A DNA stretch of 35,805 nucleotides from a virus, in the IMG/VR virus record IMGVR_UViG_3300045988_027647, positions 1 through 35,805 of that record; one strand, given 5' to 3'. Position numbers and translations under genes: made by a program. Of this stretch, positions 1-21,776 are shown one piece after another. Every line of letters starts with the position of its first letter. The stretch's first letter is position 1. The notes under the pieces are model-generated. The model was not told the DNA's origin and searched no databases. It was given only the letters and a program-made list of their open reading frames with translations.

Positions 1-329
1 TCTTCTACTGGTGCTGGCTCTTCTGCTGGTGCTGGCTCTTCTGCTGGTGCTGGCTTTGCGGCACGTTTAGCACGTGTCTTAGCGCGTTCTGATTCTACGA
101 TCTCGGCCACTGTTTTAGGCTTCTCTTCGTCCTTCACCTTTGTTGCTTCTACAACTGCGTCCGCCAACTTGTCGAGGTCGGTTTTTGCGTCGGCCGGGCT
201 TTCCAATTTTGACGATTTGAAACCAATGGTTTCGCGGGCTGCTGTTCCTGCCAGCTCGCGCAAATAGTTAGACGTTGCCAACAAATCCTTTGCACTCTCA
301 TTTCCAATTAATTCAATTGTTACTGTCAT
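1..329 (-). CDS. N-terminal part of a gene that wraps the circular junction: PAPAEE-repeat hypothetical protein (continues at 35477..35750; 200 aa in total when circularised)
   Basis: ATG at 329 overlaps the stop of the upstream ORF (TGA at 326-328). The frame stays open to position 1 and is in frame with the ORF ending at TAA 35477-35479 once the 55-nt end overlap is removed (274+329 = 603 nt). The translation ends in PAPAEE/PAPVEE hexapeptide repeats. Confidence 0.6.
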   Translation of the reverse strand, partial: MTVTIELIGNESAKDLLATSNYLRELAGTAARETIGFKSSKLESPADAKTDLDKLADAVVEATKVKDEEKPKTVAEIVESERAKTRAKRAAKPAPAEEPAPAEEPAPVE

Positions 330-505
330 TTCTTCTTAAAATTAAAAATTGTTTCTAATAGCTCATTTTTGTTCACTCTGATTTTGCCCGTCCCATTCTC
401 GTACCGGGTGAGTTTTCCGGCATTGAGCTGGTAGCGTATTGCGTTTTCGGTGCACTCCGCTAACCGGGCGGCTTCCGCCACTGTGATAAGTTCTACTTTT
501 TCCAT
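326..505 (-). CDS. Small helix-turn-helix DNA-binding protein, 59 aa (excisionase/MerR-like HTH)
   Basis: Hand translation gives MEKVELITVAEAARLAECTENAIRYQLNAGKLTRYENGTGKIRVNKNELLETIFNFKKK. The pattern (h)TvxEAAxxLgvsxxxIxxxxxxGkL...g.(i)R(v) is typical of HTH_17-type domains. It is below the ORF-track length cutoff and overlaps both neighbouring genes. Confidence 0.6.
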   Translation of the reverse strand: MEKVELITVAEAARLAECTENAIRYQLNAGKLTRYENGTGKIRVNKNELLETIFNFKKK

Positions 506-822
506 TTCATCTTTTCGTTAAATTTAAAACTCAATTTGTCAGACGTTCGATAAGTTTGTACGTGATCGGAGTATGCGGCGCGCCGGGCCTGCTCGAAAAT
601 AGTTTCGTAGCGTTTGGCGTGTGGAATTATGAAGCCCCGGATTTTATATTTAAACTTTTTTCCGGCTTCTTCTTCTCGTTGCAAATCGGCGAACACCATT
701 TTCGAGTTGCCCGGATAGCCATATAGCATTGTAGCCTCGCCTATCGTTTTGCACGCTGTAATCCTCTCCCGTATAATCTTGTAAAAGAACGCTTCTAACT
801 TATAAATGTCTATTGCTGCCAT
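493..822 (-). CDS. Hypothetical early protein, 109 aa (first gene after the early promoter)
   Basis: ORF track. It lies on the same strand as all other genes and its 3' end overlaps the next gene's start by 13 nt. No motif recognised. Confidence 0.55.
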   Translation of the reverse strand: MAAIDIYKLEAFFYKIIRERITACKTIGEATMLYGYPGNSKMVFADLQREEEAGKKFKYKIRGFIIPHAKRYETIFEQARRAAYSDHVQTYRTSDKLSFKFNEKMKWKK

Positions 823-1036
823 ATCTAGTAATGTTTAAAACGATTCTCCGGTATCGGAATAGTTCAACAAATTTAGTAGGCTTTTCAGTTGTTTTATCGA
901 TTGGGATTCTGGCTTTATAACTTCAATTAAGCGGATACCGCACCGTCTTTTCAAATGAATTGGGATACCGTCCGTGTTTCCCTTCTAACGCCCTTTGGTT
1001 ACGATTGGCGGCGCTCTCATTTCTCTTTCGATATTA

Positions 1037-1066
1037 CAAAGATACGGCTTTATTTTGAACTACAAA
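1037..1066 (-). promoter_or_regulatory. Bacteroidota-type promoter for the early operon (-33 TTTG, -7 TATCTTTG)
   Basis: The minus strand reads TTTG (1066-1063), then 18 nt, then TATCTTTG (1044-1037). The extended sequence is about 85 percent identical to the promoter at 28952-28999. It is intergenic, about 200 nt upstream of the ATG at 822. Confidence 0.6.
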
Positions 1067-1211
1067 ACTATTTCCCAAAAAACTTTAGTAATTTAACTCC
1101 AATTAACGGTTTTGAAGGTTTGGTAACAGTGTCAATGATGAATGGCCCTTTTTCAATGCATCTTTCCACCCTTAACTGCGTGCGTATCAGTTAGTTAAGT
1201 GGCAAAAACGG

Positions 1212-1447
1212 GTAAAGTGGAAAGATGGAAACATGTTTTCCTATTAGTTTATATTTAAATATTTCTATAAATTCATTCACATATTAATTCATATATTTAC
1301 ATATTTTATAGATATACTACTATTTCATTCTTATCTCTATATAACATCTTTCCATCTTTGACAAATGATATATATTGATAGATAAAGTACTAGTTATTAG
1401 TGAGTTAAGTGTCAAAGATACAAATTTTAATCTTTGACAAGCAAAAA
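1212..1447. repeat. Intergenic module copy A (homologous to 21295-21534): inverted AAAGATGGAAAG arms, AT-rich core, palindromic box
   Basis: By-eye alignment with 21295-21534. The left block of about 36 nt and the right block of about 100 nt are conserved. The core of about 100 nt is of similar length but unrelated AT-rich sequence. Confidence 0.8.
1411..1445 (-). promoter_or_regulatory. Promoter-like element overlapped by the perfect palindrome GTCAAAGAT-N10-ATCTTTGAC
   Basis: Minus strand: TTTG (1445-1442), 21 nt, TATCTTTG (1420-1413). The 9-bp inverted arms lie at 1411-1419 and 1430-1438. The same arrangement occurs at 21499-21533. Confidence 0.45.
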
Positions 1448-1475
1448 CGCCAACTCGTTATGAATCAGCGTTTTA
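1441..1475 (-). terminator. Candidate Rho-independent terminator ending the late operon
   Basis: The minus-strand RNA reads AAAACGC-17 nt loop-GCGUUUU followed by U. It lies about 50 nt downstream of the stop of the last late gene (1525). The stem is AU-rich and the loop long, so this is a weak call. Confidence 0.4.
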
Positions 1476-1524
1476 AGTTTTCAAGCGTCAAAGATGAAAG
1501 GTTGTTTGTGAAAGATGAAAGGCG

Positions 1525-2112
1525 TTATTTGCCGAATTCCGCCGAGAATTCTACGTGTATTTTAGATTTTGGATTTTTATTCGATACGGTTATAGTTTGT
1601 TTCGGTTTTCCGATCCGAAAGAATAAAAACCTCTTTTGTTTGACTGATCCGATCACGTCGATCGTGTCAACACTGCTAGATTTTATAATTGCTGTGTCCG
1701 GTCGGGCTTCGACTTGTATATCATTCCATCCGTCGAAATAGTGCGCAAATCGGTTTTCTTTGTTCCCGTCCCGGTATTCTGTCTTAACCACGGTGTCCAC
1801 CTTGGTAACTGTCTCGGCCCTTGTAGCGTTCTTTAGCTCCCGTATCTTTATTCCCGCCTCGCGTACCTTATTATATAGATCGGCGTTATACAGTTCTAGC
1901 TCGTCCTTCTCTAGTTTTAACTGCCTAGCCTGTTCCGCATAATCGCCCGCCGTAGTTTTGAACGCTACGGCCTCGGTGTTAAGCGCGGTGATGTTGTTTC
2001 CCTGCCGTTCTAGCTCTTTATGCTGCCTTTTTATAGTCTTATACGACGCGTACAATAAAATGGCTAGAAGGACCGCTAAACACACCAATATCTTATTTAA
2101 TGTTATTTTCAT
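1525..2112 (-). CDS. Spanin-like / lysis accessory protein (N-terminal TM anchor plus coiled coil), 195 aa
   Basis: N-terminal hydrophobic segment ILVCLAVLLAILLYA, followed by a charged coiled-coil-like region. It sits immediately after the endolysin with an ATGA-type overlap. The function is inferred from position only. Confidence 0.45.
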   Translation of the reverse strand: MKITLNKILVCLAVLLAILLYASYKTIKRQHKELERQGNNITALNTEAVAFKTTAGDYAEQARQLKLEKDELELYNADLYNKVREAGIKIRELKNATRAETVTKVDTVVKTEYRDGNKENRFAHYFDGWNDIQVEARPDTAIIKSSSVDTIDVIGSVKQKRFLFFRIGKPKQTITVSNKNPKSKIHVEFSAEFGK

Positions 2113-2507
2113 AGGTGAAGTATTTGGCGTTTCACATTGTTCTTATCGTATGAGATATGCACCCATGAAAAATTCTTCTCGTCGATAAGCTGGCAAAACG
2201 GTAAATTGAGTTTTTGCGCCAGTTCGAAGAGTTTCTTATTCTCCTGTTTGCTACCTCCCGTTATGTCCGCCGCTTGTCCCTTCATGTGCTGCGACGTTTT
2301 AGAGCCTTTCACCGCCGTGTTAAGGGCGGGCGATCTATATCCACTATTAACTCGGATCGGTTTGCCGTACGCGTCCCGTAGAGGGTCTAGCACGTTATCA
2401 ACTAACAGTTTCAGATTCTCCACCGCTTCCGGGGTCGGATCGTTGTTGATCTTCTTCGCCGCCGCCGTCGTTGACGCGGTTAGCTCTTGGATTGTGAAGT
2501 TTCGCAT
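2109..2507 (-). CDS. Endolysin, peptidase M15 (VanY / D-Ala-D-Ala carboxypeptidase-like zinc peptidase), 132 aa
   Basis: The SGYRSPALNTAVKGSKTSQHMKGQAADI motif (SxHxxGxAxD zinc site) plus a later WVHISY histidine. It lies next to the holin-like gene. Confidence 0.85.
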   Translation of the reverse strand: MRNFTIQELTASTTAAAKKINNDPTPEAVENLKLLVDNVLDPLRDAYGKPIRVNSGYRSPALNTAVKGSKTSQHMKGQAADITGGSKQENKKLFELAQKLNLPFCQLIDEKNFSWVHISYDKNNVKRQILHL

Positions 2508-2925
2508 TTTTCAAATGTTTTATAAAGTCCAAATATTTAGTATTAATCAGTATATCCAGTACCGCTATAAATTCGTTATCCGGCTGAATCTTCTTAAAGT
2601 TACGGATAATATTCTTAGAATACACCAGCGCGAAAAGCGTTGTAAGTAATCGTAATAAGTCCGTATAATTCCCCTCCGGCTCTATAAGCCGCGCGGCTGC
2701 TGCTGTGAATAGAATCACGATCGCCGCGATCGCGTACTCGAAAAAGACGTGGAAAGCCTTTTTATGACTGTATTTTTCACCAGCCTGTAAGCCTGCAATA
2801 AGTCCTACTATAAAATTTAATGTGCCGAATAAGATTATCAGGACAAAGAATGTCATCACATCGTTAGTAACTGTTAGCAGGAAAGCTAAAGACGCGACAC
2901 GCGCCGTATCAAAAACCCCATCCAT
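2398..2925 (-). CDS. Holin-like membrane protein (3-4 TM segments)
   Basis: Hydrophobic segments VASLAFLLTV..., FFVLIILFGTLNFIVGLIAGL and FEYAIAAIVILFTAAAA, with a GLxxGxxYSxKK motif resembling the phage_holin_4 family. The start is placed at ATG 2925 (a TAATG overlap with the upstream stop) rather than the track start at 2967. The 3' end overlaps the endolysin by 110 nt. Confidence 0.6.
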   Translation of the reverse strand: MDGVFDTARVASLAFLLTVTNDVMTFFVLIILFGTLNFIVGLIAGLQAGEKYSHKKAFHVFFEYAIAAIVILFTAAAARLIEPEGNYTDLLRLLTTLFALVYSKNIIRNFKKIQPDNEFIAVLDILINTKYLDFIKHLKNAKLHNPRANRVNDGGGEEDQQRSDPGSGGESETVS

Positions 2926-3362
2926 TATTTTATCAAACATATCCGTGATTGTACCCTGTGTGAACATTCCTCCTCAATCAGTTTAGCGTCTTTTAACGCC
3001 TTGATTAACGGGACTATAAATAAATCGGCTTTTCCGCGTTCTGCCTCAAACCGCTTTGATTTGTTGTCGTCAGCCAGAACGTAGCTGCCACCATAGTTTT
3101 GTATTTTTAGGCCGCTCGCCGTGCTCTGCTGCTCGCTTGTCTGCAAGTAGCGCGCAAAGGCGTAGTAGCACAATACCTTATTAGCTCCTGTACGCGCCGG
3201 CGTATCAACCAGGTATTCCGGCGGTATCTCTTCATACGATCGGTGAAGTTGTGGCGACATGTCGAGCATGTCAGCCTCGTAAAATGCCTTCTCAATGTCG
3301 CTATCTTTAACGTCTTTCGCGATCGTAAACAAATCTCGTAGTAATTGAATCGGGTATGCCAT
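2925..3362 (-). CDS. Hypothetical virion-module protein, 145 aa
   Basis: ORF track. It abuts the portal-candidate stop (3364). No motif recognised. Confidence 0.55.
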   Translation of the reverse strand: MAYPIQLLRDLFTIAKDVKDSDIEKAFYEADMLDMSPQLHRSYEEIPPEYLVDTPARTGANKVLCYYAFARYLQTSEQQSTASGLKIQNYGGSYVLADDNKSKRFEAERGKADLFIVPLIKALKDAKLIEEECSHRVQSRICLIK

Positions 3363-3363
3363 A

Positions 3364-4512
3364 TCAATCTGTTATTACTTGGTCGGCGGGTGTAGCCACA
3401 TTGCCTTCCAAATCGTTTTTAATCTTAGTTAGTTCCGGGTCTATGTCGAATATATACGCCAGGTCGCGGGAAATCTTATCACGGACACGCGCCAATGAAC
3501 GGCGGTAAACGCGTTGCATCTCCTTAACCACTTCGCCCGACGCGTTCGAGAAGCTAATCAATGATGAATCAATAAGCGGGATTGGAATGGTAAAGCAAGA
3601 AATTGCAATATCTTTTCGCAACGGCTCGCAATATGATTTGTACAGATCGGAATCAATGGGCGTACCAATTTGATCCACCCGAATAAAGGGCTTCTCTGTA
3701 ATACCTACATTCTCGTCTCTTACTGTGAGAACCGCTCCAGTTCCCTCTACTCCCATCATTTCGGTAATAGCATCCCGGAATTCGTTTTGCTCTTGATCGC
3801 TTTGAAACATTCCGTGTGATACGACGCTACAGGCGTGGAATCCACGTGCCAGTACGTTCTCGACATACAAGGCATTCCCGTGCTCGGCTCCCATTTCCGG
3901 CTGTACCGCGTGAAACGGACTGATCGGATAAGGGCGACGGTTTGAAAAATTAGCGTAATAAAGTTGTCCCGGGTGGTTTTCAATACCTCCGTACTCTTCG
4001 CACTCCTTCCAAAAGTTTTTTGGGTTGAAGTTCGGATAAACAACGCCCGTTTTAACGTTCGTGTCCTTTAGTTGTTCCCTCTCCCAGTTATCGAATACGC
4101 GCCATTTCCGTACGATCGAATCACGTTTGTAGTCCTCGTTAAGAACGGCACGAACGTAACCGAACGGCACGGGATAACAGTACAAAGGGCGACCATCGCC
4201 GCCGTATTGTACTATTAACGCATATCCCCTATATCTTGGTATCTCGTCGGCCACGAACTCTAAAACGTCGTTCATGTCCTGACCGTGCTCGTTGGTTCTC
4301 GCCGCAAATTCTTCGTTAACGAACCCTTCGCAAATTATATTTTCTTTCGCTTTGTCACAACACGCCGTAGCGGTCTTACTAGCGTCGATGAGATTTGCGA
4401 TACGTTGCGGGTATAAGTTATCTACGTCGTAACTAACCACCCCTTCAGAAGTACGGGGCACTAAATTCAGTGCCCTACGTACTATTAACTCTATTTTCTT
4501 TGCTGCGATCAT
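3364..4512 (-). CDS. Portal protein candidate, 382 aa
   Basis: Its size, its position in the head module and its general sequence character resemble small portal proteins by eye. This is not verified by any search. Confidence 0.5.
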   Translation of the reverse strand: MIAAKKIELIVRRALNLVPRTSEGVVSYDVDNLYPQRIANLIDASKTATACCDKAKENIICEGFVNEEFAARTNEHGQDMNDVLEFVADEIPRYRGYALIVQYGGDGRPLYCYPVPFGYVRAVLNEDYKRDSIVRKWRVFDNWEREQLKDTNVKTGVVYPNFNPKNFWKECEEYGGIENHPGQLYYANFSNRRPYPISPFHAVQPEMGAEHGNALYVENVLARGFHACSVVSHGMFQSDQEQNEFRDAITEMMGVEGTGAVLTVRDENVGITEKPFIRVDQIGTPIDSDLYKSYCEPLRKDIAISCFTIPIPLIDSSLISFSNASGEVVKEMQRVYRRSLARVRDKISRDLAYIFDIDPELTKIKNDLEGNVATPADQVITD

Positions 4513-4529
4513 TGATTTACATTTTTATA

Positions 4530-5009
4530 TTATTCTTCGAACTCTTTCAGACCCTCGGCGGCTTCTGCTTCTGCTTTTTTAGCTGCTCTAGTAGCCGCTG
4601 CCTTTTTAGCCGCTTCGCTGCGTTTTGCCGCGGCGATCTCTTCTTCTGTCAGCTCCGGCTCTTCTGCTGCCATTACTTGAACGGCGTCTGTTTCCGGTTC
4701 ACCTTCTACAGGCGCTTCCGGTTCTGCTTGCAGGTCTATAAAATAGTCCTTGTATTCCTCGGCGGCTTCCATGAACTCCATGGCCTTCTCGTCGCTTGTG
4801 TTAAATGCGCGGTACACTCTTCCATCCTCGATCGAGTTGATGAATAGTCCCGGCTTCATCACGTAGCGGGTGTGTACACCAGTCAAATAACGCTCTTCAT
4901 ACCAGCGTTGTGCAAACAGGCGATCCGCACCGCACACAATATCCAATTTTAGGTTAGTCATTGTTTGGCACAATGAAACGATCTGCCCTATATCTGTAAT
5001 TTTTTCCAT
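4530..5009 (-). CDS. Hypothetical protein with an acidic/Ala-rich low-complexity C-terminus, 159 aa
   Basis: ORF track. The C-terminus reads AAEEPELTEEEIAAAKRSEAAKKAAATRAAKKAEAEAAE. Confidence 0.55.
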   Translation of the reverse strand: MEKITDIGQIVSLCQTMTNLKLDIVCGADRLFAQRWYEERYLTGVHTRYVMKPGLFINSIEDGRVYRAFNTSDEKAMEFMEAAEEYKDYFIDLQAEPEAPVEGEPETDAVQVMAAEEPELTEEEIAAAKRSEAAKKAAATRAAKKAEAEAAEGLKEFEE

Positions 5010-5031
5010 CTTTTAAACTGTTTTTAATTTA

Positions 5032-5583
5032 TTAAACTTTCGGTATTTTTAGACCGTCGTACATCCCTTTGGGTATGACAATAAGCATATCACCCGTTGA
5101 CGCTTCCGGCGTTTTAAGTGTTACCGTTGAAATACCGCCAGTGCTTGAATCGGTTGCAAGGTCCGAAGCTTCCAAACCGCAAAATGCGCCTGCTAAAAAA
5201 TAAGTATTAGCTTTAGATTTAAGAGCCACCCGGAAATTCCCTCCTAAAAGTTGCTGTATTATTTCACGATAGCCTGTTAAATCATCTATTGACCTTAAAA
5301 TTTTTAGAATAACGCTCTGATCTTCCGCTGCGGGTACTGTATCGTTTACTTTAATTGCATCTTGATACATCACGGAGTTATTAACAGAATTTATTACGTA
5401 CCCTTTTTTTCCTGTTTGCATTACGATAGTCCCTGCGTTATGATTTCCTGAATCCGCCGAAATGCTTGCTATATCGTTAGAGTTGATAATAACAGCTTCA
5501 TCTATCTCCCCGATTCCACCGGTTAACCCTAAATTGTAGCAATCATACGATATATCTGTATTTAATTTTTTAATACATGCCAT
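5032..5583 (-). CDS. Structural paralog 3 of 3 (MACIKKLN... family), 183 aa
   Basis: It shares the N-terminal M(A/G)C(I/L)xxLN motif and the C-terminal GG(F/I)(T/S)TVT(L/I)KTPE motif with 5600-6130 and 6132-6668. It is preceded by the only clear intergenic SD-like AAGGGAGGA sequence. Confidence 0.7.
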   Translation of the reverse strand: MACIKKLNTDISYDCYNLGLTGGIGEIDEAVIINSNDIASISADSGNHNAGTIVMQTGKKGYVINSVNNSVMYQDAIKVNDTVPAAEDQSVILKILRSIDDLTGYREIIQQLLGGNFRVALKSKANTYFLAGAFCGLEASDLATDSSTGGISTVTLKTPEASTGDMLIVIPKGMYDGLKIPKV

Positions 5584-5599
5584 ATAATATCCTCCCTTA

Positions 5600-6130
5600 T
5601 TATTCTGTTACGATCGCCGCGGCTCTCAATGTGTTATAATTATCTCCCCAGTAACTTAACCTCGCTTCTCCAATAACGCTTTCCGGTGTCGATACAGTAA
5701 TGGTTGTAAAACCCCCGTTCGCGTTCAGATCCTCCGAAATAGCGGTCGCACTCAAACCATAGTTATACCCGTATGCCCGAATTCTTCCTGCCTTAGTTTT
5801 AACAAGCGCTAGGAACGTACCGTTTAAAATCTGATTCACAATCGCAGTTCCGCTTACGCCGCCCTGATACAATGTGAACGTAACCGCCTGCGTTAATGCC
5901 GTCGGCGCGTTGTCGTTCTCCTTGATCTCTTCCGTAGCGTTTACACCCTTCTTGTTACTCTCAACCAGCACGGCTTTAGCGTTAGCGGCTAGCGTTATAG
6001 TGGCAATACCATCCGCTACGCTCTTTGTAGCAATATCCGCGAAATTGACAAGAAGCATTTCGGCTACGCCTGTTGCCCCTCCGTCGCAATCAACTAAGAT
6101 CGCCTTATTTAATTTATTTAAGCATCCCAT
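5600..6130 (-). CDS. Structural paralog 2 of 3 (MGCLNKLN...), about 176 aa
   Basis: The start is moved to ATG 6130, one nt after the TAA stop of paralog 1, so that the N-terminus aligns with the paralogs. The track start at 6205 would overlap paralog 1. Confidence 0.7.
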   Translation of the reverse strand: MGCLNKLNKAILVDCDGGATGVAEMLLVNFADIATKSVADGIATITLAANAKAVLVESNKKGVNATEEIKENDNAPTALTQAVTFTLYQGGVSGTAIVNQILNGTFLALVKTKAGRIRAYGYNYGLSATAISEDLNANGGFTTITVSTPESVIGEARLSYWGDNYNTLRAAAIVTE

Positions 6131-6131
6131 A

Positions 6132-6668
6132 TTATACAAGTTTTGCGGCTGTGATCGTTGTCCACGTTGCCGAAGCGATTGTTGTTCTATTTTCTCCCCT
6201 AGCATCGTCCGGTGTTTTAATAGTTACCGTAGTAAAACCCCCCGCCGCGTTAGAATCCGTATCAGCTTGTGAAATTTCAAGCCCACATTTGTAACCAACC
6301 AATAAAGGCGCGGCATTAATATCGTTTAGCTTCACGGCTGCCATGAAGCGCCCCGATAAAAGAGCTGCCATAATTAGGTTAGCGTTCGCTGTAGTCTTAT
6401 CATATAAGGTAAACATGATAGACTGATCCAAACCTGCTGAAACGTCTGATAACTTCAACGCTTCCGTCAACTTCGCACCATTTTTGTACGCCTCAACCGG
6501 AATAGTTTTTGCCCCCGATTTAAGCGACAACGCGGTAATTTGATTACTAGCGTCTACGGTTGCGGCGGTTACGTCGTCAAAGTTAATAAGATACATTTCA
6601 GCGATACCTACGCTACCGGGTTGGCAGGCGTAGGTAATTGCTTTATTTAATGTCTTTATACAAGCCAT
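6132..6668 (-). CDS. Structural paralog 1 of 3 (MACIKTLN...), 178 aa
   Basis: ORF track. It lies directly downstream of the major capsid gene and is paralogous to the two following genes. Confidence 0.7.
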   Translation of the reverse strand: MACIKTLNKAITYACQPGSVGIAEMYLINFDDVTAATVDASNQITALSLKSGAKTIPVEAYKNGAKLTEALKLSDVSAGLDQSIMFTLYDKTTANANLIMAALLSGRFMAAVKLNDINAAPLLVGYKCGLEISQADTDSNAAGGFTTVTIKTPDDARGENRTTIASATWTTITAAKLV

Positions 6669-6685
6669 CTATTTTTGTTTTTAGA

Positions 6686-7642
6686 TTATACCGTTGCAGC
6701 GGTACAAAGTTTCATATACTCCGGAACTGCAAGCATAGCATCAGCCGCAAATACGGTTGTACTGTAATACTTACGGTCTTTAGCGTCACGGATGAACGGA
6801 TCAATAGTCAAACTTGCATCTTCCAAAGCCAACTGAATGTTAGTTTTCGGAGAGAAAGCAATGAAAGACTGAACTGTCAAAGCGTCGCCTTTAGCGCTGT
6901 TAGATACGTGGCGAAGTTCGTTCACCTTGTAACCTTCGAAGTAGTACGCCGGTTTTCCATTCTCCATGTTAGCTTGTGCCAAATGGTTATCTTTTGCTTC
7001 TACCAGATCCTTGTAAGCACGCATAATGTCGCTAGTTACATAGAATTCTGAATCGTCCAGTTGATCGGCGCGCTGGTTGTCGATACACCATTTCAGACAT
7101 TCCAAAACGTTAGCACCAGCTCCAGATGGAACAAGGGCCTTAATTGATTCGGCTGATGCCTGCATCTGCTTGATGATACCACCGTTTTTAAACACGGTGT
7201 ATACACCCGCTGTATCAGTTGCTTTCAGACCGTCCAGCCATACGAGACGTAACATGTCAGCTTCCAATACTTTCAGAATTTCATTCTGCATGAAAGCCGC
7301 CAACTGTGTTTGGTCGAAATCAGCTGAAAGGTGAACGCCTTTTGCAACCATTTTGCCCCACAAGTCTTGCAGACAAACCACGATAGGCAACTCAATTTGT
7401 GCGTGATCGTAGTATTTAACCTTATCGTTAAGAGAACTATACTTGTATTCGCTATCACAGCCCGCGGAACGTCTTACCGCTTTGTCTGTTGCTGTGAAAG
7501 TCAAGATAGGTTTACCCTTTTCAATACCTGCTAACACGGTTACGCCGTTGGACAATTCGCCCTCCAGACCCAGTGTCAAAGAAATAACATCGGCTAGGCT
7601 GTCGATATTCAATTTGTTTAAATCGCTAAATGTAAATGCCAT
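6686..7642 (-). CDS. Major capsid protein candidate, 318 aa
   Basis: Its position directly after the scaffold/protease candidate, its size and its composition are typical of HK97-fold capsid proteins. No search was possible. Confidence 0.65.
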   Translation of the reverse strand: MAFTFSDLNKLNIDSLADVISLTLGLEGELSNGVTVLAGIEKGKPILTFTATDKAVRRSAGCDSEYKYSSLNDKVKYYDHAQIELPIVVCLQDLWGKMVAKGVHLSADFDQTQLAAFMQNEILKVLEADMLRLVWLDGLKATDTAGVYTVFKNGGIIKQMQASAESIKALVPSGAGANVLECLKWCIDNQRADQLDDSEFYVTSDIMRAYKDLVEAKDNHLAQANMENGKPAYYFEGYKVNELRHVSNSAKGDALTVQSFIAFSPKTNIQLALEDASLTIDPFIRDAKDRKYYSTTVFAADAMLAVPEYMKLCTAATV

Positions 7643-7662
7643 AATTTTAATGTTTTAGTAGA

Positions 7663-8682
7663 TTAATATTTGAATTTTTTACGCTGTTCATCCGCTGCTT
7701 TTTGAACGGCTTCACGGCTCAACTTAGTTTCGGTCTTAGTTTCTGTTTTGACCTCTGTTTTAGCCGCTGCTGGTGCGCCTGTACGTTTGCTTAACTGCGT
7801 TTTGAGTTCGGTTACAGTTTTCTTCAACTCGGTAACTTCTTTGCGGATCGCTGCAAGTTCTTCCGGTGTAGCCGTTTTCTTCTTGTCCTCTTCCGGCTTT
7901 TCTTCCTCGGTTGCTAACTCTTCCGGCTTTTCTTCCTCGGGCTTAGCTTCGCTTTCCACTTCCTTAACGTCGGAAATCTTTCCGGCTACGACTGAAATAA
8001 TCATGTCTTCACCTTCACCGATCGAAATGTAATAATCACCGTCTTCTACGGGTTTGCCCTCGGCGTCCTGTACTTCGTCGCCCAAAGCAGCTTGTTCGCC
8101 TTGTGCGATAATAACAAGCTCTCTTCCTTCTTTGGTTGTGACGGTTTCCCTAGCCAGCTTAGTAGATTTAACTCGCTCGACTAATTTTGTCCAAAATTTG
8201 CTCATTGATAATTTTTTTAAATTGTTATTAAATAAAGAACTAGTAGCCGCGGGAAGTCCCACCAAATCGGCACTAAATAATTCTCTTACTTCTGTTACGG
8301 TTGCGGTTTGCGTCGCTTCATCCAACTGCTTAACGTCAGACTGATTAACCGATACGCCTAATAATTCCGGCTCCTTCTCGATCATGGTAACCATAAAATT
8401 ATATTCGCTAGGATACGCTTTTTCCAGTGCTTCTGACATAACTAGATCAGCATAAACGGCTTTTTCGTCGTGCGTGAAGTTGACAAAATACCCGATATAC
8501 CCGTCTAGCAAGTCCTCACCGTTATGTGTGCGGCGTGCGTGAATAGGCCGGGTATTACCCAAGCCAACTATAGAAGGGAAAGCACTTGCAGAGATGACTA
8601 ATTTATAAGCCTTTCCCCCTTCTTCATAGTGGTTTGTGGTTTCCCCGGCTTCTATAATGCGTAATTTTTTAAATATTTTCAT
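7663..8682 (-). CDS. Scaffolding protein, possibly fused to an N-terminal prohead protease, 339 aa
   Basis: The C-terminal half is a highly charged E/K coiled coil with a duplicated PEEEKPEE segment. The N-terminal ~150 aa contain His (RRTHNGED) and GVSVN segments reminiscent of the S78 prohead protease. It lies immediately upstream of the MCP. Confidence 0.5.
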   Translation of the reverse strand: MKIFKKLRIIEAGETTNHYEEGGKAYKLVISASAFPSIVGLGNTRPIHARRTHNGEDLLDGYIGYFVNFTHDEKAVYADLVMSEALEKAYPSEYNFMVTMIEKEPELLGVSVNQSDVKQLDEATQTATVTEVRELFSADLVGLPAATSSLFNNNLKKLSMSKFWTKLVERVKSTKLARETVTTKEGRELVIIAQGEQAALGDEVQDAEGKPVEDGDYYISIGEGEDMIISVVAGKISDVKEVESEAKPEEEKPEELATEEEKPEEDKKKTATPEELAAIRKEVTELKKTVTELKTQLSKRTGAPAAAKTEVKTETKTETKLSREAVQKAADEQRKKFKY

Positions 8683-8702
8683 ATATTACTGTATTATTGG
8701 TA

Positions 8703-8710
8703 CAAAGATA
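8703..8710 (-). promoter_or_regulatory. Possible internal -7 box (TATCTTTG) ahead of the scaffold/capsid genes
   Basis: An intergenic TATCTTTG lies 21 nt upstream of ATG 8682. There is no correctly spaced -33 TTTG, so support is weak. Confidence 0.35.
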
Positions 8711-8749
8711 TATTATTTTACGGCACGAGGCCGCGGCTTTACCTACGAT

Positions 8750-11263
8750 TTATAGGCTAGCCGCTACCTGTACACTATTATATTGTTGTTGACCCTCGTC
8801 TATGTCGGTAACTGCCACCCGTGGAGCGGGAACACTAGCCACCGAATCGTACATAATCGCCGCTAATTTCCGCAAACTGTCATTCGACAAGCTGAAATTA
8901 CTAGGTAACTGCATAGTCGATCCGCCGCCTACGTCGATCTTCCCACCATTGGCGTACCGATACACACCAGACGAACCGAACGAACGCCCGCCGTACTCCA
9001 TATTAAGAGCCGATAACGCGTTGATCGCGCCGGACGCTTTACGATTGAGAATATACATATTCTCTCCGCCCTCGGCTTCGAACTGTTGACCATTCGACCC
9101 GGTGAACGTTACGCCGCCCGCCGCGTGGCTAGCTCCGTAAATCTGTCCACCCTTTGCGTATTTCTTCACGCTTGTATTTATCTTAGTGTCCGGATCTTTA
9201 GTCTTGTTAATGCTCATAACGTTCTTCATACCAGCCGCCACTACAATAGCCGCCTGCGCGATACCCCAGATACCACCCTGCGCCAGTGCTTTAGACGCAC
9301 CTAGATAAGTATTGATAAGTGCTTGTGCCGTGGCAAATGCTTTGCCCGCCGCGCTCTCTTCGCCTAGTAAGCTAGAGAGTTGTCCGGCTGTGCCCGCCGC
9401 CATCTCCAATTGCGCGTTATAGTAGTCCCGTTTCCGCTCTTTCTTCAGAATATCGTACTTCTCCTCTATGGAGGCCGTCTCTGCTCCGATGGCTTCCGCG
9501 TTAGCGATCTCGGCCGCCTTTTGCGCGTCTAACCGGGCTAACTGACTTTCAAGATCGTTGTTCATTTTCATATCAGCTAGCGCGCGGTCGTTCTCCAGGT
9601 TGAGGGCTTGACGGTCTCTTTCCTTCTGGTCTTCCTCGTCCTTCCGGGACTTGACCTCCGCGGCGTATTCCAACTCGAGTTGGCGAACGTTGTTAATGTA
9701 TTCTTGTTCACCTATAAGACCTTGTGCCCGTCTGTACGTCTCAATCTCTATCTTTTTATCGTTCACCGCTTGCAATTCTTGTAACGACGTTTGAGCGCCT
9801 TCTAGTTCCCGTTGCGCTATATCCAGCTGCATCGCGGTAACCGCTTCCGAATATTTCTTAAGTTGTGCGTCCTGTGCCGCCTTGATCGCGTCCTGCGCCT
9901 TCTTATGCGCGTCCGCTTCTCTCTTCGCTGCATCTTCCGCCGCCTTCGCTGACTTCGCCGCCGCCGCTTGTGCCGCTTGTGCCTGCTTGTCACGCTCCTG
10001 TTTGATGAAGCCGGACACTTGTCCCGCCATTTCTTTCTCCTGTGTAGCGTAACTTGCTCTAGCCGCTTCGAGTGCTGCAAGTGCTTCCTGTTCTTTCCGT
10101 GCGTCCTCGTCGCTAGTATATCCTAATTGGTTCTCGGCTTTGATCTGCTTGTATTTAGCATCCAGTACTGACAACTCCATATCACGGATGGCATGCAACT
10201 TTTCCCTAGCTTGTTCCAATAACTTAGTACGCTCCGCCGCTGACTTGTTTTGATCCGCTGCCAGTGTCTTAAGTTCTTCCATCTCGCGCCGCATTTGCGC
10301 CATTGGAACGAGTGCCGCCGTTTCAGCTTGGTAAATCTTCTGCGTTTGGGCTGCTAGTTTCGCACCTTCCGCCGCCGCTCTCTTTGTCTCCTCACTGATA
10401 AGCCCTAGTTTGTCTAGAAGCCATGTAACGGCTTTAGCAATGTTCTCAAGCACGAACGCCACACCTTTGAATAGATCGGTTATCCAGTCCAGCAAACGCC
10501 CGAGAATGACCTTAAACGGAGCGAACGCCGCTTGCAGGCTAGTCGCTAACTCGCTGTTGCGTTTCATCAGCTTCTCGATGATACCGATAAGAGTTAAGAC
10601 TATAGACACGACAAATATAATAGGGTTCGCCTTTAGCGCCGCGTTGAACGCCTGCACCCCGGTTATGCCGCTTTTCATTTGCCCTACCAGCGCACCCGTG
10701 CTACCAGACAACCCTTGTGTTTGCAATATGCCGTCCTTGACGCTCTCGGCATAATTACCGACATTACGACGGTTGTCGCCTACCGACTTTTCCAGCTCCT
10801 TAAGTTTGTCCGATAACGCCTTGGTTTGCTCGGTCAGGTCTTGACCTTCCTTGCTGGTAGTCCGTTGCGCCTCGCTCATCTTGTTCAGCTCCGTGGTGTT
10901 TTGCGCCAGTTGGGCGCGTAGGGCGTTGACGCTCGTAGCCTCATTGTCCAGGAGCGTTTTTGTAGACTTGATTTCGGCGTTATTCTTTTTGTTCGCCTCG
11001 GTATTGTCCAGTATCGCTTTTTGCGTCTCGATCAGAGACTTGTTCAGCTTCTTAACAGTCGCGTCGTACTTGTCCTGCTGTACAAGCCCGTCCGCGTAGT
11101 TCTGGTTTAGCGCGTCCAGCTCCTTCTTCTCGGAGGCGTACGCCGCTTGCAAATCCTTTTTAGTCTTTGCAAGGGACATACTCTTAGCTATTAACGCGTC
11201 TAGCCCCTTCTCGGCTTCTGACGTGCCGAAATTAAGGTCTAATAATGTTACTTGATCCGCCAT
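8750..11263 (-). CDS. Tape-measure-like protein (or internal/ejection protein), 837 aa
   Basis: Long Ala/Gln/Glu/Lys coiled-coil stretches, internal hydrophobic segments (IIFVVSIVLTLIGII; GIWGIAQAAIVVAAG) and a Gly-rich C-terminal region. No upstream chaperone pair or frameshift site was seen. Confidence 0.55.
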   Translation of the reverse strand: MADQVTLLDLNFGTSEAEKGLDALIAKSMSLAKTKKDLQAAYASEKKELDALNQNYADGLVQQDKYDATVKKLNKSLIETQKAILDNTEANKKNNAEIKSTKTLLDNEATSVNALRAQLAQNTTELNKMSEAQRTTSKEGQDLTEQTKALSDKLKELEKSVGDNRRNVGNYAESVKDGILQTQGLSGSTGALVGQMKSGITGVQAFNAALKANPIIFVVSIVLTLIGIIEKLMKRNSELATSLQAAFAPFKVILGRLLDWITDLFKGVAFVLENIAKAVTWLLDKLGLISEETKRAAAEGAKLAAQTQKIYQAETAALVPMAQMRREMEELKTLAADQNKSAAERTKLLEQAREKLHAIRDMELSVLDAKYKQIKAENQLGYTSDEDARKEQEALAALEAARASYATQEKEMAGQVSGFIKQERDKQAQAAQAAAAKSAKAAEDAAKREADAHKKAQDAIKAAQDAQLKKYSEAVTAMQLDIAQRELEGAQTSLQELQAVNDKKIEIETYRRAQGLIGEQEYINNVRQLELEYAAEVKSRKDEEDQKERDRQALNLENDRALADMKMNNDLESQLARLDAQKAAEIANAEAIGAETASIEEKYDILKKERKRDYYNAQLEMAAGTAGQLSSLLGEESAAGKAFATAQALINTYLGASKALAQGGIWGIAQAAIVVAAGMKNVMSINKTKDPDTKINTSVKKYAKGGQIYGASHAAGGVTFTGSNGQQFEAEGGENMYILNRKASGAINALSALNMEYGGRSFGSSGVYRYANGGKIDVGGGSTMQLPSNFSLSNDSLRKLAAIMYDSVASVPAPRVAVTDIDEGQQQYNSVQVAASL

Positions 11264-11270
11264 TTTTATG

Positions 11271-13016: not shown

Positions 13017-13017
13017 C

Positions 13018-15252: not shown

Positions 15253-15698
15253 TATTTAATATTTAAAGTGTCAATAATAGCGTATCTAATTATAGTTACT
15301 ATCTCATTTTGTAACTTCAAGACCCTAGCAGGGTTGAGAACGTCCGACACCACGCCGCCGGGGTTGTGGCTGTTTGGTACCTTGATCCCTTCTTCACCGA
15401 TAGCCTTCGCGATCGGATAAGCCGCGCTTAACGGTATGTTCGCGCCTTGCTTGTTCTTGTCCTCGATCCATTTACGTATGATCCACAATGGCGGACGTTT
15501 TCCCGCTATCCTTCCGCCTTCCATCGCACCCACATAGCGCGGCGCTGTGATACGGGCGTTATTGCCGCTTACAACCAACTTTAGCTCTTTGGCAAAGTTA
15601 CCGGATGCCATCAGCCCTTTAGCCTTGTACGAGGCTTCTATATCGTCCCGTAGCTTGGTTAGTAGTACCTCTATTTCCAACATCGCGTTACGTGCCAT
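15252..15698 (-). CDS. Hypothetical virion protein, 148 aa
   Basis: ORF track. Its start and stop are coupled to both neighbouring genes. No motif recognised. Confidence 0.5.
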   Translation of the reverse strand: MARNAMLEIEVLLTKLRDDIEASYKAKGLMASGNFAKELKLVVSGNNARITAPRYVGAMEGGRIAGKRPPLWIIRKWIEDKNKQGANIPLSAAYPIAKAIGEEGIKVPNSHNPGGVVSDVLNPARVLKLQNEIVTIIRYAIIDTLNIK

Positions 15699-18467: not shown

Positions 18468-18471
18468 AACG

Positions 18472-19152: not shown

Positions 19153-19303
19153 ATTCAATCAGTTCTAGTTCTTCGTAATAATACCACTCCTCAACGTTCG
19201 ATCCGTCCCATTGCACGACCACGCCTAACACGTCGGCCTCTGTAACCGTCCCGGTGTTCCCGGCGTAATCGTATTTAATGCGTACTCGATCGTCTACTCT
19301 CAT
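19145..19303 (-). CDS. Possible small protein, 52 aa
   Basis: Hand translation gives MRVDDRVRIKYDYAGNTGTVTEADVLGVVVQWDGSNVEEWYYYEELELIEYE. It fills the gap between terL and the next gene, and its stop overlaps the next ATG. It is below the track cutoff. Confidence 0.35.
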   Translation of the reverse strand: MRVDDRVRIKYDYAGNTGTVTEADVLGVVVQWDGSNVEEWYYYEELELIEYE

Positions 19304-19312
19304 GCTGCAAAT

Positions 19313-21770: not shown

Positions 21771-21776
21771 CAATCC

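What the first reader, a model, noticed from the sequence alone, without database searches (positions are those of the whole stretch)
1212..1447. Duplicated ~240-bp non-coding module at both operon junctions (copy A, late-to-early junction)
Regions 1212-1447 and 21295-21534, 20 kb apart, are clearly homologous, while most other intergenic DNA is unique.

- Left block: gtaaagtggaaagatggaaacatgttttcctattag versus gtcaaagatggaaagatggaaagacgttttcctattag.
- Core: about 100 nt of similar length but unrelated, extremely AT-rich sequence.
- Right block: about 100 nt (atctttccatctttgacaaat...ataaagtacta...gtgtcaaagatacaaattttaatc[t/a]ttgaca..caaaaac) at roughly 80 percent identity.

The two copies occupy the only two large non-coding gaps of the circular genome. 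Copy A lies between the late-operon terminator and the early promoter. Copy B lies between the early-operon terminators and terS. Core A also carries CATAT at 1280, 1290 and 1300, an exact 10-bp phasing.

Conserved protein-box flanks, inverted arms and a freely drifting AT-rich core fit three models: an origin (iterons plus an unwinding element), a looped operator/switch region, or a long-stem structured RNA. I cannot distinguish these from sequence alone. I know of no described phage element with this paired layout, so this is my best candidate for something new in the window.
Basis: partly seen in the sequence, partly recalled or inferred. Interest (0 to 1): 0.7.

Follow-up and report, generated by a model that had tools for sequence, protein, structure and literature searches.

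The report
Twin iteron replication origins, Bacteroides phage
The two look-alike non-coding blocks are most likely a pair of replication origins: arrays of short binding sites for the phage's own primase-helicase flank an easily melted AT-rich stretch, a known design seen here in a new host group and in duplicate.

Summary
The repeat is real. Window 1214-1448 matches 21298-21535 at 75.6% over 242 columns (E 4e-31). It is the strongest dispersed repeat in this circular ~35.8-kb Bacteroides siphophage.

Each copy belongs to a ~390-bp module (1129-1517 and 21226-21604). A module holds at least 8 short boxes with core (C/T)ATCTTTGACA / TGTCAAAGATG. The boxes face each other across a ~100-bp, 13-14% GC core, and these cores are the two least stable 100-bp windows of the genome.

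About 45 relatives keep both modules, and so do two clades whose primase-helicase is only ~69% identical. The boxes change in concert within a genome (TTGACA versus TTTACA type) in both modules. Among 37-47 phage proteins tested, the column that best tracks this switch is residue 778 of the 796-aa primase-helicase (p 8e-8; next best 5e-4). It is Arg in G-type phages and Ala/Gln/Val/Ser in T-type phages.

That protein is homologous to the SaPI Rep self-loading helicase-initiator (PDB 7PDS, E 1e-72). Residue 778 lies in the wing of its C-terminal winged-helix domain.

Best reading: twin SaPI-Rep-type iteron origins, each with an embedded host-type promoter. The RNA-stem and pac-site readings are disfavoured. 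The kind is known and paired origins have a precedent (SPP1 oriL/oriR), so this is a new variant. All evidence is in silico.

The parts
1129..1517 (-). Module A: the whole origin-like unit at the late-to-early junction. Genes read on the minus strand, so in the coding direction it runs 1517 -> 1129.
   Evidence: Alignment to module B. Box positions. Present in all 19 close GenBank relatives and about 30 IMG/VR contigs.
1507..1517 (-). Box a1 (CATCTTTCACA on the coding strand)
   Evidence: aligned across relatives
1486..1496 (-). Box a2 (CATCTTTGACG on the coding strand)
1409..1442. Head-to-head box pair a3/a4 (TGTCAAAGAT - TAAAATTTGT - ATCTTTGACA). The spacer ACAAATTTTAATC (1420-1432) is identical in copies A and B; TTAAAATTTGTATCT is unchanged in 25 of the 29 copy-A sequences and, in the rows printed there, in 20 of 23 copy-B sequences (single-base changes in the rest).
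   Evidence: (I1)
1413..1445 (-). Bacteroides-type promoter consensus TTTG-N21-TATCTTTG, reading towards the core and the early operon. It overlaps boxes a3/a4.
   Evidence: 6 hits in the window, all on the coding strand, 0.88 expected. The final G of the -7 box is not conserved in many relatives (site a4).
1345..1363 (+). Tandem boxes a5/a5b (TGTCAAAGATGGAAAGATG on the coding strand), at the upstream edge of the core
   Evidence: (I7, I24). The type switch is tied to residue 778 (p 4e-7 and 3e-8).
1243..1343 (.). AT-rich core A (14% GC), the putative DNA-unwinding element. It is the least stable 100-bp window of the genome.
   Evidence: dG -97.3 vs genome mean -137.9, sd 8.9. Nearly invariant in 29 relatives.
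1280..1304 (.). Three 10-bp-phased repeats (CATAT on the plus strand; ATATGnnAnT on the coding strand) inside core A
   Evidence: The columns are invariant or nearly so among relatives.
1212..1247 (-). Tandem boxes a6 (GTTTCCATCTTTCCACTTTAC on the coding strand) plus the conserved CTAATAGG border, at the downstream edge of the core
   Evidence: I24
1159..1171 (+). Box a7 (GGGTGGAAAGATG on the coding strand)
1129..1142 (-). Box a8 (TTCATCATTGACAC on the coding strand). It has no aligned counterpart in module B, yet it switches type with residue 778.
   Evidence: p 4e-7
21226..21604 (-). Module B: the whole origin-like unit at the early-to-late junction, directly upstream of terS
21573..21604 (-). 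Boxes b2 (21573-21587) and b1 (21593-21604), direct repeats
   Evidence: association with residue 778 p 1e-5 and 5e-5
21497..21532 (-). Head-to-head pair b4/b3 overlapping a Bacteroides-type promoter consensus (21501-21532)
   Evidence: (I1)
21433..21451 (+). Tandem boxes b5/b5b, at the upstream edge of core B
   Evidence: (I6); p 9e-9 and 9e-8
21314..21414 (.). AT-rich core B (13% GC), the putative DNA-unwinding element. It is the second least stable 100-bp window of the genome.
   Evidence: The block AGTTAACATAAATATACTATTGT is largely conserved in relatives.
21293..21332 (-). Triple tandem boxes b6 (GTCTTTCCATCTTTCCATCTTTGACAC on the coding strand) plus the CTAATAGG border
   Evidence: I6; p 2e-7
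21226..21260 (+). Boxes b8 and b7 (GGTGGAAAGATG and GGGGCGGAAAGATG on the coding strand), just upstream of the terS -7 box
29119..31509 (-). Primase-helicase (796 aa), the proposed initiator. It has an N-terminal primase, a VapE/SF3 helicase domain and a C-terminal winged-helix domain.
   Evidence: Pfam PF05272 at residues 464-682. phrog_9765 primase at 4-317. PDB 7pds_A (SaPI1 Rep1) E 1.2e-72. Foldseek top hits are the 7pds chains, E 1.8e-14.
29122..29460 (-). C-terminal domain (residues ~684-796). The wing loop is N771-Q779. The R778 codon is 29176-29178 and the N771 codon is 29197-29199.
   Evidence: The CTD profile hits only 7pds_A residues 324-455, E 0.006. The AF2 CTD has pLDDT 71-87 with a beta-helix-helix-beta-wing-beta order. 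Codons were checked by translation.
1037..1066 (-). Early-operon promoter (TTTG-N18-TATCTTTG), downstream of module A
   Evidence: (D3, D6)
21740..21771 (-). Intrinsic terminator closing the early block, upstream of module B

Best explanation
Each module is an iteron-type replication origin of the kind used by SaPI Rep/PriRep self-loading helicase-initiators. Short boxes (iterons; core (C/T)ATCTTTGACA, also read as TGTCAAAGATG-GAAAGATG tandems) lie in opposite orientations on the two sides of a ~100-bp, 13-14% GC DNA-unwinding element, with further boxes on the outer flanks.

The proposed mechanism runs as follows. The phage's 796-aa primase-helicase (29119-31509) binds the boxes through the wing of its C-terminal winged-helix domain. 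It assembles on both sides of the core, melts it, loads itself and primes synthesis, and the phage family-A polymerase (31515-33581) elongates.

The genome carries two such origins, one at the head of the early operon and one at the head of the late (terS) operon. Each also holds a host-type promoter inside a head-to-head iteron pair, so initiator occupancy and transcription into the origin are probably coupled.

Shown in silico: the repeat; the box enrichment; the least-stable cores; conservation of both modules across clades with clade-specific boxes; homology of the protein to SaPI Rep; and co-variation of the boxes with the wing residue.

Inferred: actual binding, melting and origin firing, and whether both copies fire or one serves as an auxiliary site.
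For: (1) Box enrichment. TGTCAAWGAT gives 10 hits, all in the two modules, against 0.14 expected. GAAAGATG gives 7 of 8 hits in the modules.

(2) Architecture. Opposed tandem boxes flank the two least stable 100-bp windows of the genome (dG -97 and -99 vs mean -138, sd 8.9). This matches the published SaPI ori description: 6-12 iterons, an AT-rich centre, and at least 2 iterons on each side pointing in opposite directions (PMC9371898).

(3) Conservation. Both modules are present in all 19 close GenBank relatives and in every IMG/VR contig for which the fetched DNA gave a full-length match at both junctions (22 contigs have both; the others lack a full-length match at one or both sites, some of them cut by a contig end). 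In clades with only ~69% primase-helicase identity, the clade-specific boxes (CATCTGTGACA, CTATTACA) occur only in two clusters ~15 kb apart with the same orientation pattern.

(4) Concerted type switch. Genomes are either TTGACA/TGTCAA type or TTTACA/TGTAAA type, and the type agrees between modules A and B.

(5) Genome-wide protein-column scan. The best column is primase-helicase residue 778 (KLYG[R]QV): p 3e-6 in the discovery set with the next best at 4e-4, and p 8e-8 in the enlarged set with the next best at 5e-4. Eight further GenBank genomes replicated it 8/8 at box 5. The split holds inside three different CTD sequence backgrounds. Eight separate boxes each associate at p 5e-5 to 9e-9, including a8, which has no counterpart in module B. 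For a second box position (CATC[T/G/A]TT), the top four associated columns all lie in the same CTD, residues 759-766.

(6) Protein identity. 7pds_A SaPI1 Rep1 matches at E 1.2e-72. The CTD profile hits only the Rep1 CTD, E 0.006, aligning KRTKLYG with KKQTRYG. The AF2 CTD (pLDDT 71-87) places residues 771 and 778 at the two ends of the wing loop. The Foldseek top hits are the 7pds chains. The N-terminus matches a primase family.
Against: There is no experiment, so binding, melting and initiation are all inferred.

In SaPIs the ori lies immediately downstream of rep and is single. Here the two sites are ~5.5 and ~7.5 kb from the gene.

Two genomes break the rule: 038600 has Arg with T-type boxes, and 035735 has Ala with mostly G-type boxes.

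About half of the boxes (a1-a4, a7, b3, b4, b7, b8) follow residue 778 weakly or not at all.

The association p-values are not corrected for shared ancestry; stratification by CTD background is only a partial control.

The CTD-to-Rep1-CTD sequence match is marginal (E 0.006). The AF2 model is poor outside the CTD (mean pLDDT 55) and the Foldseek TM-scores are low (~0.3).

The box core resembles the Bacteroides -7 promoter element (TAnnTTTG), and both modules sit just upstream of operons, so a purely transcriptional role for the same protein-DNA contacts is not excluded.
Confidence: 0.68

Rival explanations
1. The modules are transcriptional control regions only. The boxes act as operators around a promoter at the head of each operon, are bound by the primase-helicase CTD or another regulator, set the early/late programme, and have no origin activity.
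For: Both modules lie directly upstream of the two operons. Each holds one of only six Bacteroides promoter-consensus matches in the window, overlapped by a head-to-head box pair. The box core resembles the -7 element. terS has a -7 box but no -33, which suggests read-through or activation. Iteron-plasmid Rep proteins repress their own promoters through inverted repeats (own knowledge).
Against: The protein whose residues track the boxes is a Rep-type helicase-initiator, not a dedicated regulator. The layout of opposed boxes around the least stable DNA of the genome is an origin layout. In most relatives the module promoter loses the G of TAnnTTTG (site a4/b4). The small HTH protein (326-505) is 93-100% identical across relatives, so it cannot explain the box switch.
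Confidence: 0.15
2. The modules are packaging (pac) recognition regions. The boxes are small-terminase binding sites arranged like SPP1 pacL/pacR around a cleavage region.
For: Module B lies immediately upstream of terS (phrog_606). Repeated boxes around a bendable AT-rich stretch resemble known pac sites (own knowledge). One GenBank record (BKO1-1) starts inside module B.
Against: Module A is 20 kb from terS, at the other junction. The best terS column associates only at p 2e-3 to 4e-3, against 8e-8 for the primase-helicase. Record start points differ among relatives and look arbitrary.
Confidence: 0.05
3. The module is a transcribed, structured RNA whose inverted arms form a long stem enclosing the AT-rich loop.
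For: The 18-nt arms are complementary in the window (I6). Two arm columns show changes on both sides in 10-13 of 36 relatives. A promoter consensus lies upstream and reads through.
Against: There is no Rfam family at gathering or E<=1 level. Four arm pairs are unpaired in 14-25 of 36 sequences, and overall pairing is 84% against 80.7% in shuffles. The two 'compensatory' columns are exactly the type-switch positions, which change in the same way in direct-repeat boxes that have no stem partner and in the other module. In BK745P1 the arms differ outright.
Confidence: 0.04
4. The pair is a by-product: a duplicated junction sequence kept similar by gene conversion, serving at most as a recombination hot spot for swapping early and late gene blocks.
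For: Some copy-A sequences carry a copy-B-like segment (L036_A), so conversion between the copies does occur. These phages are highly mosaic.
Against: The architecture and both positions persist across clades whose boxes have diverged completely. Each core is conserved among relatives but differs between A and B. The boxes track a specific protein residue, including box a8, which has no homologue in module B.
Confidence: 0.04

Closest known systems
SaPI replication origins with Rep / PriRep self-loading helicase-initiators (Staphylococcus aureus pathogenicity islands; PDB 7PDS, 7OLA; PMC9371898)
   Same: The initiator is homologous (E 1.2e-72 over the helicase region; the CTD profile hits only the Rep1 CTD) and is fused to a primase, as in PriRep5. 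The origin has short iterons on both sides of an AT-rich centre in opposite orientations. Initiator and iterons have matched specificities, shown here by co-variation.
   Different: The host is a Bacteroides siphophage rather than a satellite island. There are two origins per genome, not one. Neither adjoins the initiator gene (~5.5 and ~7.5 kb away). The modules are larger (~390 bp, at least 8 boxes of ~11 bp including outer-flank boxes). A host-type promoter is embedded in a head-to-head box pair.
Bacillus phage SPP1 oriL / oriR (PMC6316719)
   Same: There are two origins of similar organisation (repeats plus an AT-rich DUE), kilobases apart in the circular map, recognised by one origin-binding protein. 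One of them lies in a long intergenic region of the late block.
   Different: The SPP1 initiator gp38 works with a separate loader (gp39) and a DnaB-type helicase (gp40), a different protein system. oriL lies inside gene 38. SPP1 uses direct repeats rather than opposed arrays. Here both copies are intergenic and sit at the operon heads.
Satellite phage P4 ori and crr with the alpha primase-helicase
   Same: A single primase-helicase polypeptide with a C-terminal winged-helix origin-binding domain recognises short iterons at two separate sites several kb apart.
   Different: crr is an auxiliary cis element made of two direct 120-bp repeats, not a second copy of the full ori layout. Homology of P4 alpha to the protein here was not tested.
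Iteron plasmids (pPS10, F, R6K, RK2): iterons plus DUE plus an inverted-repeat operator at the rep promoter (PMC4980987 listed; details from own knowledge)
   Same: They combine winged-helix initiator sites, an AT-rich DUE carrying phased short repeats, and an inverted repeat of the same site overlapping a promoter.
   Different: Plasmid Rep proteins are not helicases and recruit host DnaB. Here the initiator is itself the helicase and primase.

Membership tests
SaPI-type Rep/PriRep iteron origin | An initiator homologous to Rep: VapE/SF3-type helicase with a C-terminal winged-helix DNA-binding domain | tested here: met
   PF05272 at residues 464-682. 7pds_A E 1.2e-72. CTD profile to Rep1 residues 324-455, E 0.006. 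AF2 CTD with beta-helix-helix-beta-wing-beta order, pLDDT 71-87. Foldseek top hits are the 7pds chains.
SaPI-type Rep/PriRep iteron origin | Six to twelve short repeated sites (iterons) clustered at the origin | tested here: met
   At least 8 boxes per module. All 10 TGTCAAWGAT hits fall in the modules, against 0.14 expected. The boxes are ~11 bp, longer than SaPI penta- or hexamers.
SaPI-type Rep/PriRep iteron origin | An AT-rich region near the centre with at least two iterons on each side pointing in opposite directions | tested here: met
   Tandem boxes a5 and a6, and b5 and b6, face each other across the 13-14% GC cores (I6/I24, 92). The cores are the two least stable windows of the genome.
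SaPI-type Rep/PriRep iteron origin | The origin lies immediately downstream of the rep gene and is single-copy | tested here: not met
   The gene is at 29119-31509 and the modules are at 1129-1517 and 21226-21604. The 207-nt gap after the gene holds a promoter but no box cluster.
SaPI-type Rep/PriRep iteron origin | Cognate specificity between the initiator CTD and its iterons | tested here: met
   Tested in silico only. Residue 778 vs box type gives p 8e-8, is the best of all protein columns, replicates 8/8, and holds within three CTD backgrounds.
SaPI-type Rep/PriRep iteron origin | ATP-independent origin binding and melting, and origin-dependent replication | not testable with these tools
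   This needs EMSA or footprinting, KMnO4 melting assays, and plasmid or marker-frequency replication assays.
SPP1-like dual origins (oriL/oriR) | Two similarly organised repeat-plus-DUE regions, kilobases apart, recognised by the same origin-binding protein | tested here: met
   Two homologous modules lie 20 kb (15.7 kb the other way round the circle) apart. Boxes in both modules switch type with the same protein residue. Binding itself is inferred.
SPP1-like dual origins (oriL/oriR) | A gp38-type origin-binding protein with a separate helicase loader and DnaB-type helicase | tested here: not met
   The initiator here is a primase-VapE helicase fusion. No DnaB-type helicase or loader turned up among the proteins scanned, but that scan was not exhaustive.
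P4 ori/crr | An alpha-type primase-helicase whose C-terminal winged helix binds iterons at ori and at a distant crr | not tested
   The functional resemblance is recalled from the literature.
Known structured RNA family (Rfam) | A match to a curated covariance model | tested here: not met
   No hits at gathering score over the whole window. Only chance-level hits (E 0.6-1) in both regions.
SPP1-type pac region (pacL/pacC/pacR) | Repeated TerS-binding boxes next to terS, matched to TerS specificity | tested here: inconclusive
   Module B adjoins terS but module A does not. The best TerS columns associate only at p ~2e-3 to 4e-3. Termini were not mapped.

The most novel reading that the evidence does not exclude
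The twin origins form a coupled replication-transcription switch. Each module places a host-type promoter inside a head-to-head iteron pair, so primase-helicase occupancy would both license initiation and gate read-through transcription into the early and late operons. The copy upstream of terS, which lacks a complete promoter of its own, would additionally act like SPP1 oriR: as an initiator-bound fork barrier, or as a looping partner of copy A, that triggers the change to concatemer synthesis and late expression right where packaging starts.
Probability: 0.2. Interest if true: 0.65.

Novelty: new variant of a known kind. Interest (0 to 1): 0.45.

Why it matters
In the literature searched here I found no replication origin described for Bacteroides or gut Bacteroidales phages. 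This analysis gives concrete, testable origin candidates for a large family of ~33-38-kb phages that infect Bacteroides, Phocaeicola and Parabacteroides.

It also names the initiator and a single wing residue (R778) that appears to set iteron specificity. That offers three handles: engineering replicons or phage-derived vectors for Bacteroides, predicting replication incompatibility or cross-talk between co-infecting phages, and studying how SaPI-type self-loading helicases read DNA.

The duplicated layout, with an embedded promoter at both operon heads, raises a testable question about how replication and the early/late programme are coupled.

Tried and rejected
1. RNA reading. Rfam at gathering score on the whole window, and at E<=1 on both regions, found nothing meaningful. 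The arm-pairing test on 36 relatives showed that the stem is not maintained.

2. CTD-only AlphaFold model with a 6-sequence alignment. Its pLDDT was 45, so it was unusable and was not sent to a fold search.

3. The 411-residue model. It is good only in the CTD. Foldseek recovered the 7pds chains but with low TM-scores, and the other winged-helix hits were all E>0.1, so they count only as a trend.

4. The search for homologous proteins with the CTD alone returned only nine close fragments. The full-length search returned many hits, but the 120 listed were all between 68% and 95% identical to the window protein.

5. TerS, the 59-aa HTH, the 109-aa protein and the 179-aa protein as the box binder. 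None of their columns comes near the primase-helicase signal.

6. Small ORFs inside the modules (955-1194 +, 21237-21425 -, and others). 955-1194 has no PHROG family; 21237-21425 has only 3 orthologues at >=60% coverage (955-1194 lies on the plus strand and was not in that ortholog scan), and their frames are not conserved, so they were treated as spurious.

7. Literature on these phages. The Gut Microbes 2025 paper does not mention origins, iterons or primase. No paper was found for the OP1726xx isolates. The P4 crr search gave nothing usable.

8. The sigma-70 promoter scan is not informative for Bacteroides, so the Bacteroides consensus was scanned instead.

9. GC skew gives no origin signal, because all genes lie on one strand and the cumulative skew is monotonic.
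Full report
**What the window is**

The 35,805-bp window is a circular genome. An 18-nt tandem repeat array spans its ends. It belongs to a Bacteroides siphophage about 90% identical to B. ovatus phages BK745P1, BK687P2 and BO1.

All credible genes lie on the minus strand and form two blocks.
- The early block, in the coding direction, holds a 109-aa protein, a small HTH, a repeat protein, an exonuclease, an SSB-like protein, a family-A polymerase, a primase-helicase, a second helicase, further small genes and a 179-aa protein (methylase genes sit here in several relatives; none was looked for in the window).
- The late block runs from terS and terL through the structural genes to the endolysin and a phrog_14010 protein.

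They occupy the two largest non-coding gaps, 702 and 527 nt; the next largest are 240 and 207 nt.

Yes. Self-BLAST aligns 1214-1448 with 21298-21535 at 75.6% over 242 columns, E 4e-31 and 132 bits. The best of 100 shuffles scored 30 bits. It is the strongest dispersed repeat in the window. CATAT occurs at 1280, 1290 and 1300.

A box family with core TGTCAAAGATG / CATCTTTGACA, and the related GGAAAGATG, extends over 1129-1517 and 21226-21604.
- TGTCAAWGAT has 10 hits, all in these two stretches, against 0.14 expected.
- GAAAGATG has 7 of its 8 hits there.

**Anatomy**

Read in the coding direction, each module contains, in order:
1. two direct boxes;
2. about 40 nt of copy-specific conserved sequence;
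3. TTTTTGC followed by a head-to-head box pair around the nearly invariant spacer TAAAATTTG;
4. about 45 nt;
5. a tandem of two reverse-oriented boxes;
6. a ~100-bp core of 13-14% GC;
7. a conserved TAATAGG(G)AAAA border;
8. two or three tandem forward boxes;
9. about 40 nt;
10. two more boxes, and then the operon start.

The cores at 1243-1343 and 21314-21414 are the two least stable 100-bp windows of the genome. Their nearest-neighbour dG values are -97.3 and -98.8, against a mean of -137.9 (sd 8.9); the third-ranked window is -108.8.

**Comparative evidence**

All 19 close GenBank relatives carry both copies. So does every IMG/VR contig for which the fetched DNA gave a full-length match at both junctions (22 contigs).

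- The AT-rich cores are not freely drifting. Core A is almost invariant in 29 sequences, including the three 10-bp-phased ATATG repeats. Core B keeps a largely conserved AGTTAACATAAATATACTATTGT block. The cores differ only between A and B.
- The boxes are the most variable columns, but they vary in concert. A genome uses either TTGACA/TGTCAA with GGAAAG, or TTTACA/TGTAAA with GTAAAG, at most boxes, and the type agrees between modules A and B. The discovery set has 14 G-type and 23 T-type genomes.

Some copy-A sequences carry a copy-B-like segment, so gene conversion between the copies does occur.

**Who reads the boxes?**

I extracted orthologues of the 47 window proteins from the fetched loci. 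The 37 with at least 5 G-type and 5 T-type genomes were tested, every alignment column against box type.
- The best column, by two orders of magnitude, was residue 778 of the 796-aa primase-helicase (motif KLYG-R-QV). It is Arg in 11 of 13 G-type genomes and Ala, Gln or Val in 20 of 21 T-type genomes. Fisher p is 3e-6, and the next best column anywhere is 4e-4.
- Eight further GenBank genomes, fetched afterwards as a replication set, agreed 8 of 8 at the core-flanking tandem in both modules. Arg went with TGTCA..GAT.GAAAG; Ala or Ser went with TGTAA..GAT.TAAAG.
- In the enlarged set p is 8e-8, with the next best at 5e-4.
- Eight separate boxes each associate at p 5e-5 to 9e-9. One of them is a8, which has no aligned counterpart in module B, so simple A/B conversion cannot explain the pattern.
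- The Arg/non-Arg split tracks box type within three different sequence backgrounds of the C-terminal domain.
- A second variable box position (CATC[T/G/A]TT) has its four best-associated columns in the same domain, residues 759-766.

There are two exceptions: 038600 (Arg with T-type boxes) and 035735 (Ala with mostly G-type boxes). About half of the boxes follow residue 778 weakly or not at all. The p-values are not corrected for ancestry.

**What the protein is**

- Pfam finds a VapE-like helicase domain at residues 464-682.
- PHROGs finds a primase family at residues 4-317.
- The only PDB sequence hit is 7pds_A, SaPI1 Rep1 bound to DNA, at E 1.2e-72.
- A profile of the C-terminal ~140 residues again hits only that chain, at residues 324-455 (E 0.006), aligning KRTKLYG with KKQTRYG.
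- An AlphaFold model of residues 386-796 is poor in the ATPase part but confident in the C-terminal domain (pLDDT 71-87). The order there is strand-helix-helix-strand-loop-strand. Residues 771 and 778, the two associated positions, sit at the two ends of the wing loop.
- The Foldseek top hits are the six 7pds chains (E 1.8e-14), aligned over almost their full length. The weaker hits are mostly winged-helix DNA binders, ORC/Cdc6 and plasmid Rep proteins, and none of those is significant.

Qiao et al. 2022 (PMC9371898) describe SaPI Reps as self-loading helicases that also act as initiators. A C-terminal winged helix reads the iterons. The ori holds 6-12 iterons and an AT-rich centre, with at least two iterons on each side in opposite orientation. 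That is the layout found here.

**More distant clades**

Contigs whose primase-helicase is ~69% identical keep both modules at the same two junctions with the same orientation pattern, but with different boxes.
- L112 uses CATCTGTGACAC, TATCTATTACAC and TGTAATAGATGTAATAGAT.
- L124 uses CTATTACA and TGTAATAG.

In the two loci that reach both junctions with each clade's pattern (L112, L124) the boxes occur nowhere else; L120 and L121 also show only clustered hits, while L123 and L131 have one or two stray matches.

A still more distant ~33-kb phage (L060) shows CTGTGCAG / TGCACAG repeats in opposed orientation around an AT-rich stretch at the equivalent site. The twin layout is therefore a conserved trait of this phage group, with lineage-specific sites, as expected for initiator and iteron pairs.

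**Transcription**

The Bacteroides promoter consensus TTTG-N17-22-TAnnTTTG has six matches in the window, all on the coding strand, against 0.88 expected.
- Four are operon promoters (1037-1066, 26776-26806, 28952-28982, 34245-34274).
- Two lie inside the modules (1413-1445 and 21501-21532), overlapping the head-to-head box pair.

In many relatives the last G of the -7 box is T or C, so the strength of these module promoters is uncertain. terS has a -7 box but no -33 at proper spacing. I read this as probable coupling of transcription with origin function. Precedents are transcriptional activation of origins and the inverted-repeat operators of iteron plasmids (own knowledge). It also keeps a purely regulatory reading alive as the main rival.

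**Rivals**

- Structured RNA. There is no Rfam hit. Arm pairing is 84% against 80.7% in shuffles, and four pairs are unpaired in 14-25 of 36 sequences. The only 'compensatory' columns are the type-switch positions, which change in the same way in non-partner boxes.
- Pac site. Only module B adjoins terS, and the TerS columns associate weakly.
- Neutral duplicated junction. This is contradicted by conservation of both positions and of the architecture across clades, and by the protein co-variation.

**Comparison with what is known**

- The element works like, and by most testable criteria belongs with, SaPI-type Rep/PriRep iteron origins. One defining feature is not met: it is not a single origin directly downstream of rep.
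- Paired origins bound by one protein are known in SPP1 (oriL and oriR, ~13 kb apart, repeats plus DUE; oriR lies in a late intergenic region and is proposed to stall forks; PMC6316719). The SPP1 initiator system is unrelated.
- P4 ori/crr with the alpha primase-helicase is a further functional parallel (own knowledge, not tested here).

I therefore class the finding as a new variant of a known kind. It is a Rep-type iteron origin in a Bacteroides phage, duplicated at both operon heads, with an embedded promoter and a readable specificity residue.

**Verdict**

- Observation: confirmed.
The origin model is favoured, the RNA model is disfavoured, and the novelty claim is overstated.
- Confidence that the boxes are primase-helicase sites: about 0.75.
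- Confidence that at least one module is a working origin: about 0.68.
- Whether both copies fire remains open.
- Interest: 0.45.

Noticed in passing
window 823-1030, minus strand (also L112 3676-3900, L124 3608-3835, L131 4765-4990): The ~200-nt leader between the early promoter and the first early gene is conserved across clades. A hairpin AGCGCC-[GCCAAUCGUAACCAAAGG]-GGCGU shows compensatory changes (GC->CG, CG->UA), and a second hairpin changes from GCGG-UAU-CCGC to GUGG-UAU-CCAC. Eight of 34 predicted pairs change on both sides in only 5 sequences. There is no Rfam hit and no conserved reading frame. It is a candidate structured leader RNA.
   Followed up: partly
window 1037-1066, 26776-26806, 28952-28982, 34245-34274 (minus strand): Four near-identical Bacteroides-type promoters (TTTG-N18-19-(C/A)(G/A)TATCTTTG, repeat family D3/D6/D7) divide the early region into transcription units. 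Together with the two module promoters they are the only consensus matches in the genome, and all are on the coding strand.
   Followed up: partly
window 21640-21776; L112 18230-18470: Upstream of module B there is an intrinsic terminator (21740-21771) and repeated TTGAGAG(A/G)AAA...TTTTTT motifs. The window has one or two copies (~21680-21702) and the distant clade L112 has four or five. Their role is unknown; they could be further terminators or another protein's sites.
   Followed up: no
window 1-86 and 35639-35800 (gene 35718..329 across the junction, minus strand): An 18-nt tandem repeat array encodes an Ala/Pro/Glu-rich repeat protein that spans the window ends, showing that the window is a circularly closed genome. 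The protein is only 55-75% identical among relatives, so the repeat number is probably variable.
   Followed up: no
L060 3600-3850 (IMG/VR contig 3300029608_000025, ~33 kb): A more distant phage group (phrog_14010 protein ~36% identical) has, at the equivalent late-to-early junction, opposed CTGTGCAG / TGCACAG repeats around an AT-rich stretch. The origin-like layout therefore seems general in these Bacteroidales siphophages.
   Followed up: partly
window 21176-21249: The terS start is ambiguous. The longest ORF starts at 21249, inside boxes b8/b7, whereas relatives annotate a 229-230-aa product that corresponds to the ATG at ~21175, just after a -7 box (TATTTTTG). The shorter start fits the conserved non-coding pattern better.
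   Followed up: no
window 5536-6674: Three direct repeats of ~54 nt, 67-70% identical to the reference copy and spaced ~540 nt apart, sit at the starts of three consecutive ~180-200-aa structural genes (5032-5583, 5600-6205, 6132-6668). This suggests tandemly duplicated paralogous genes, and these are also the least conserved late genes among relatives.
   Followed up: no
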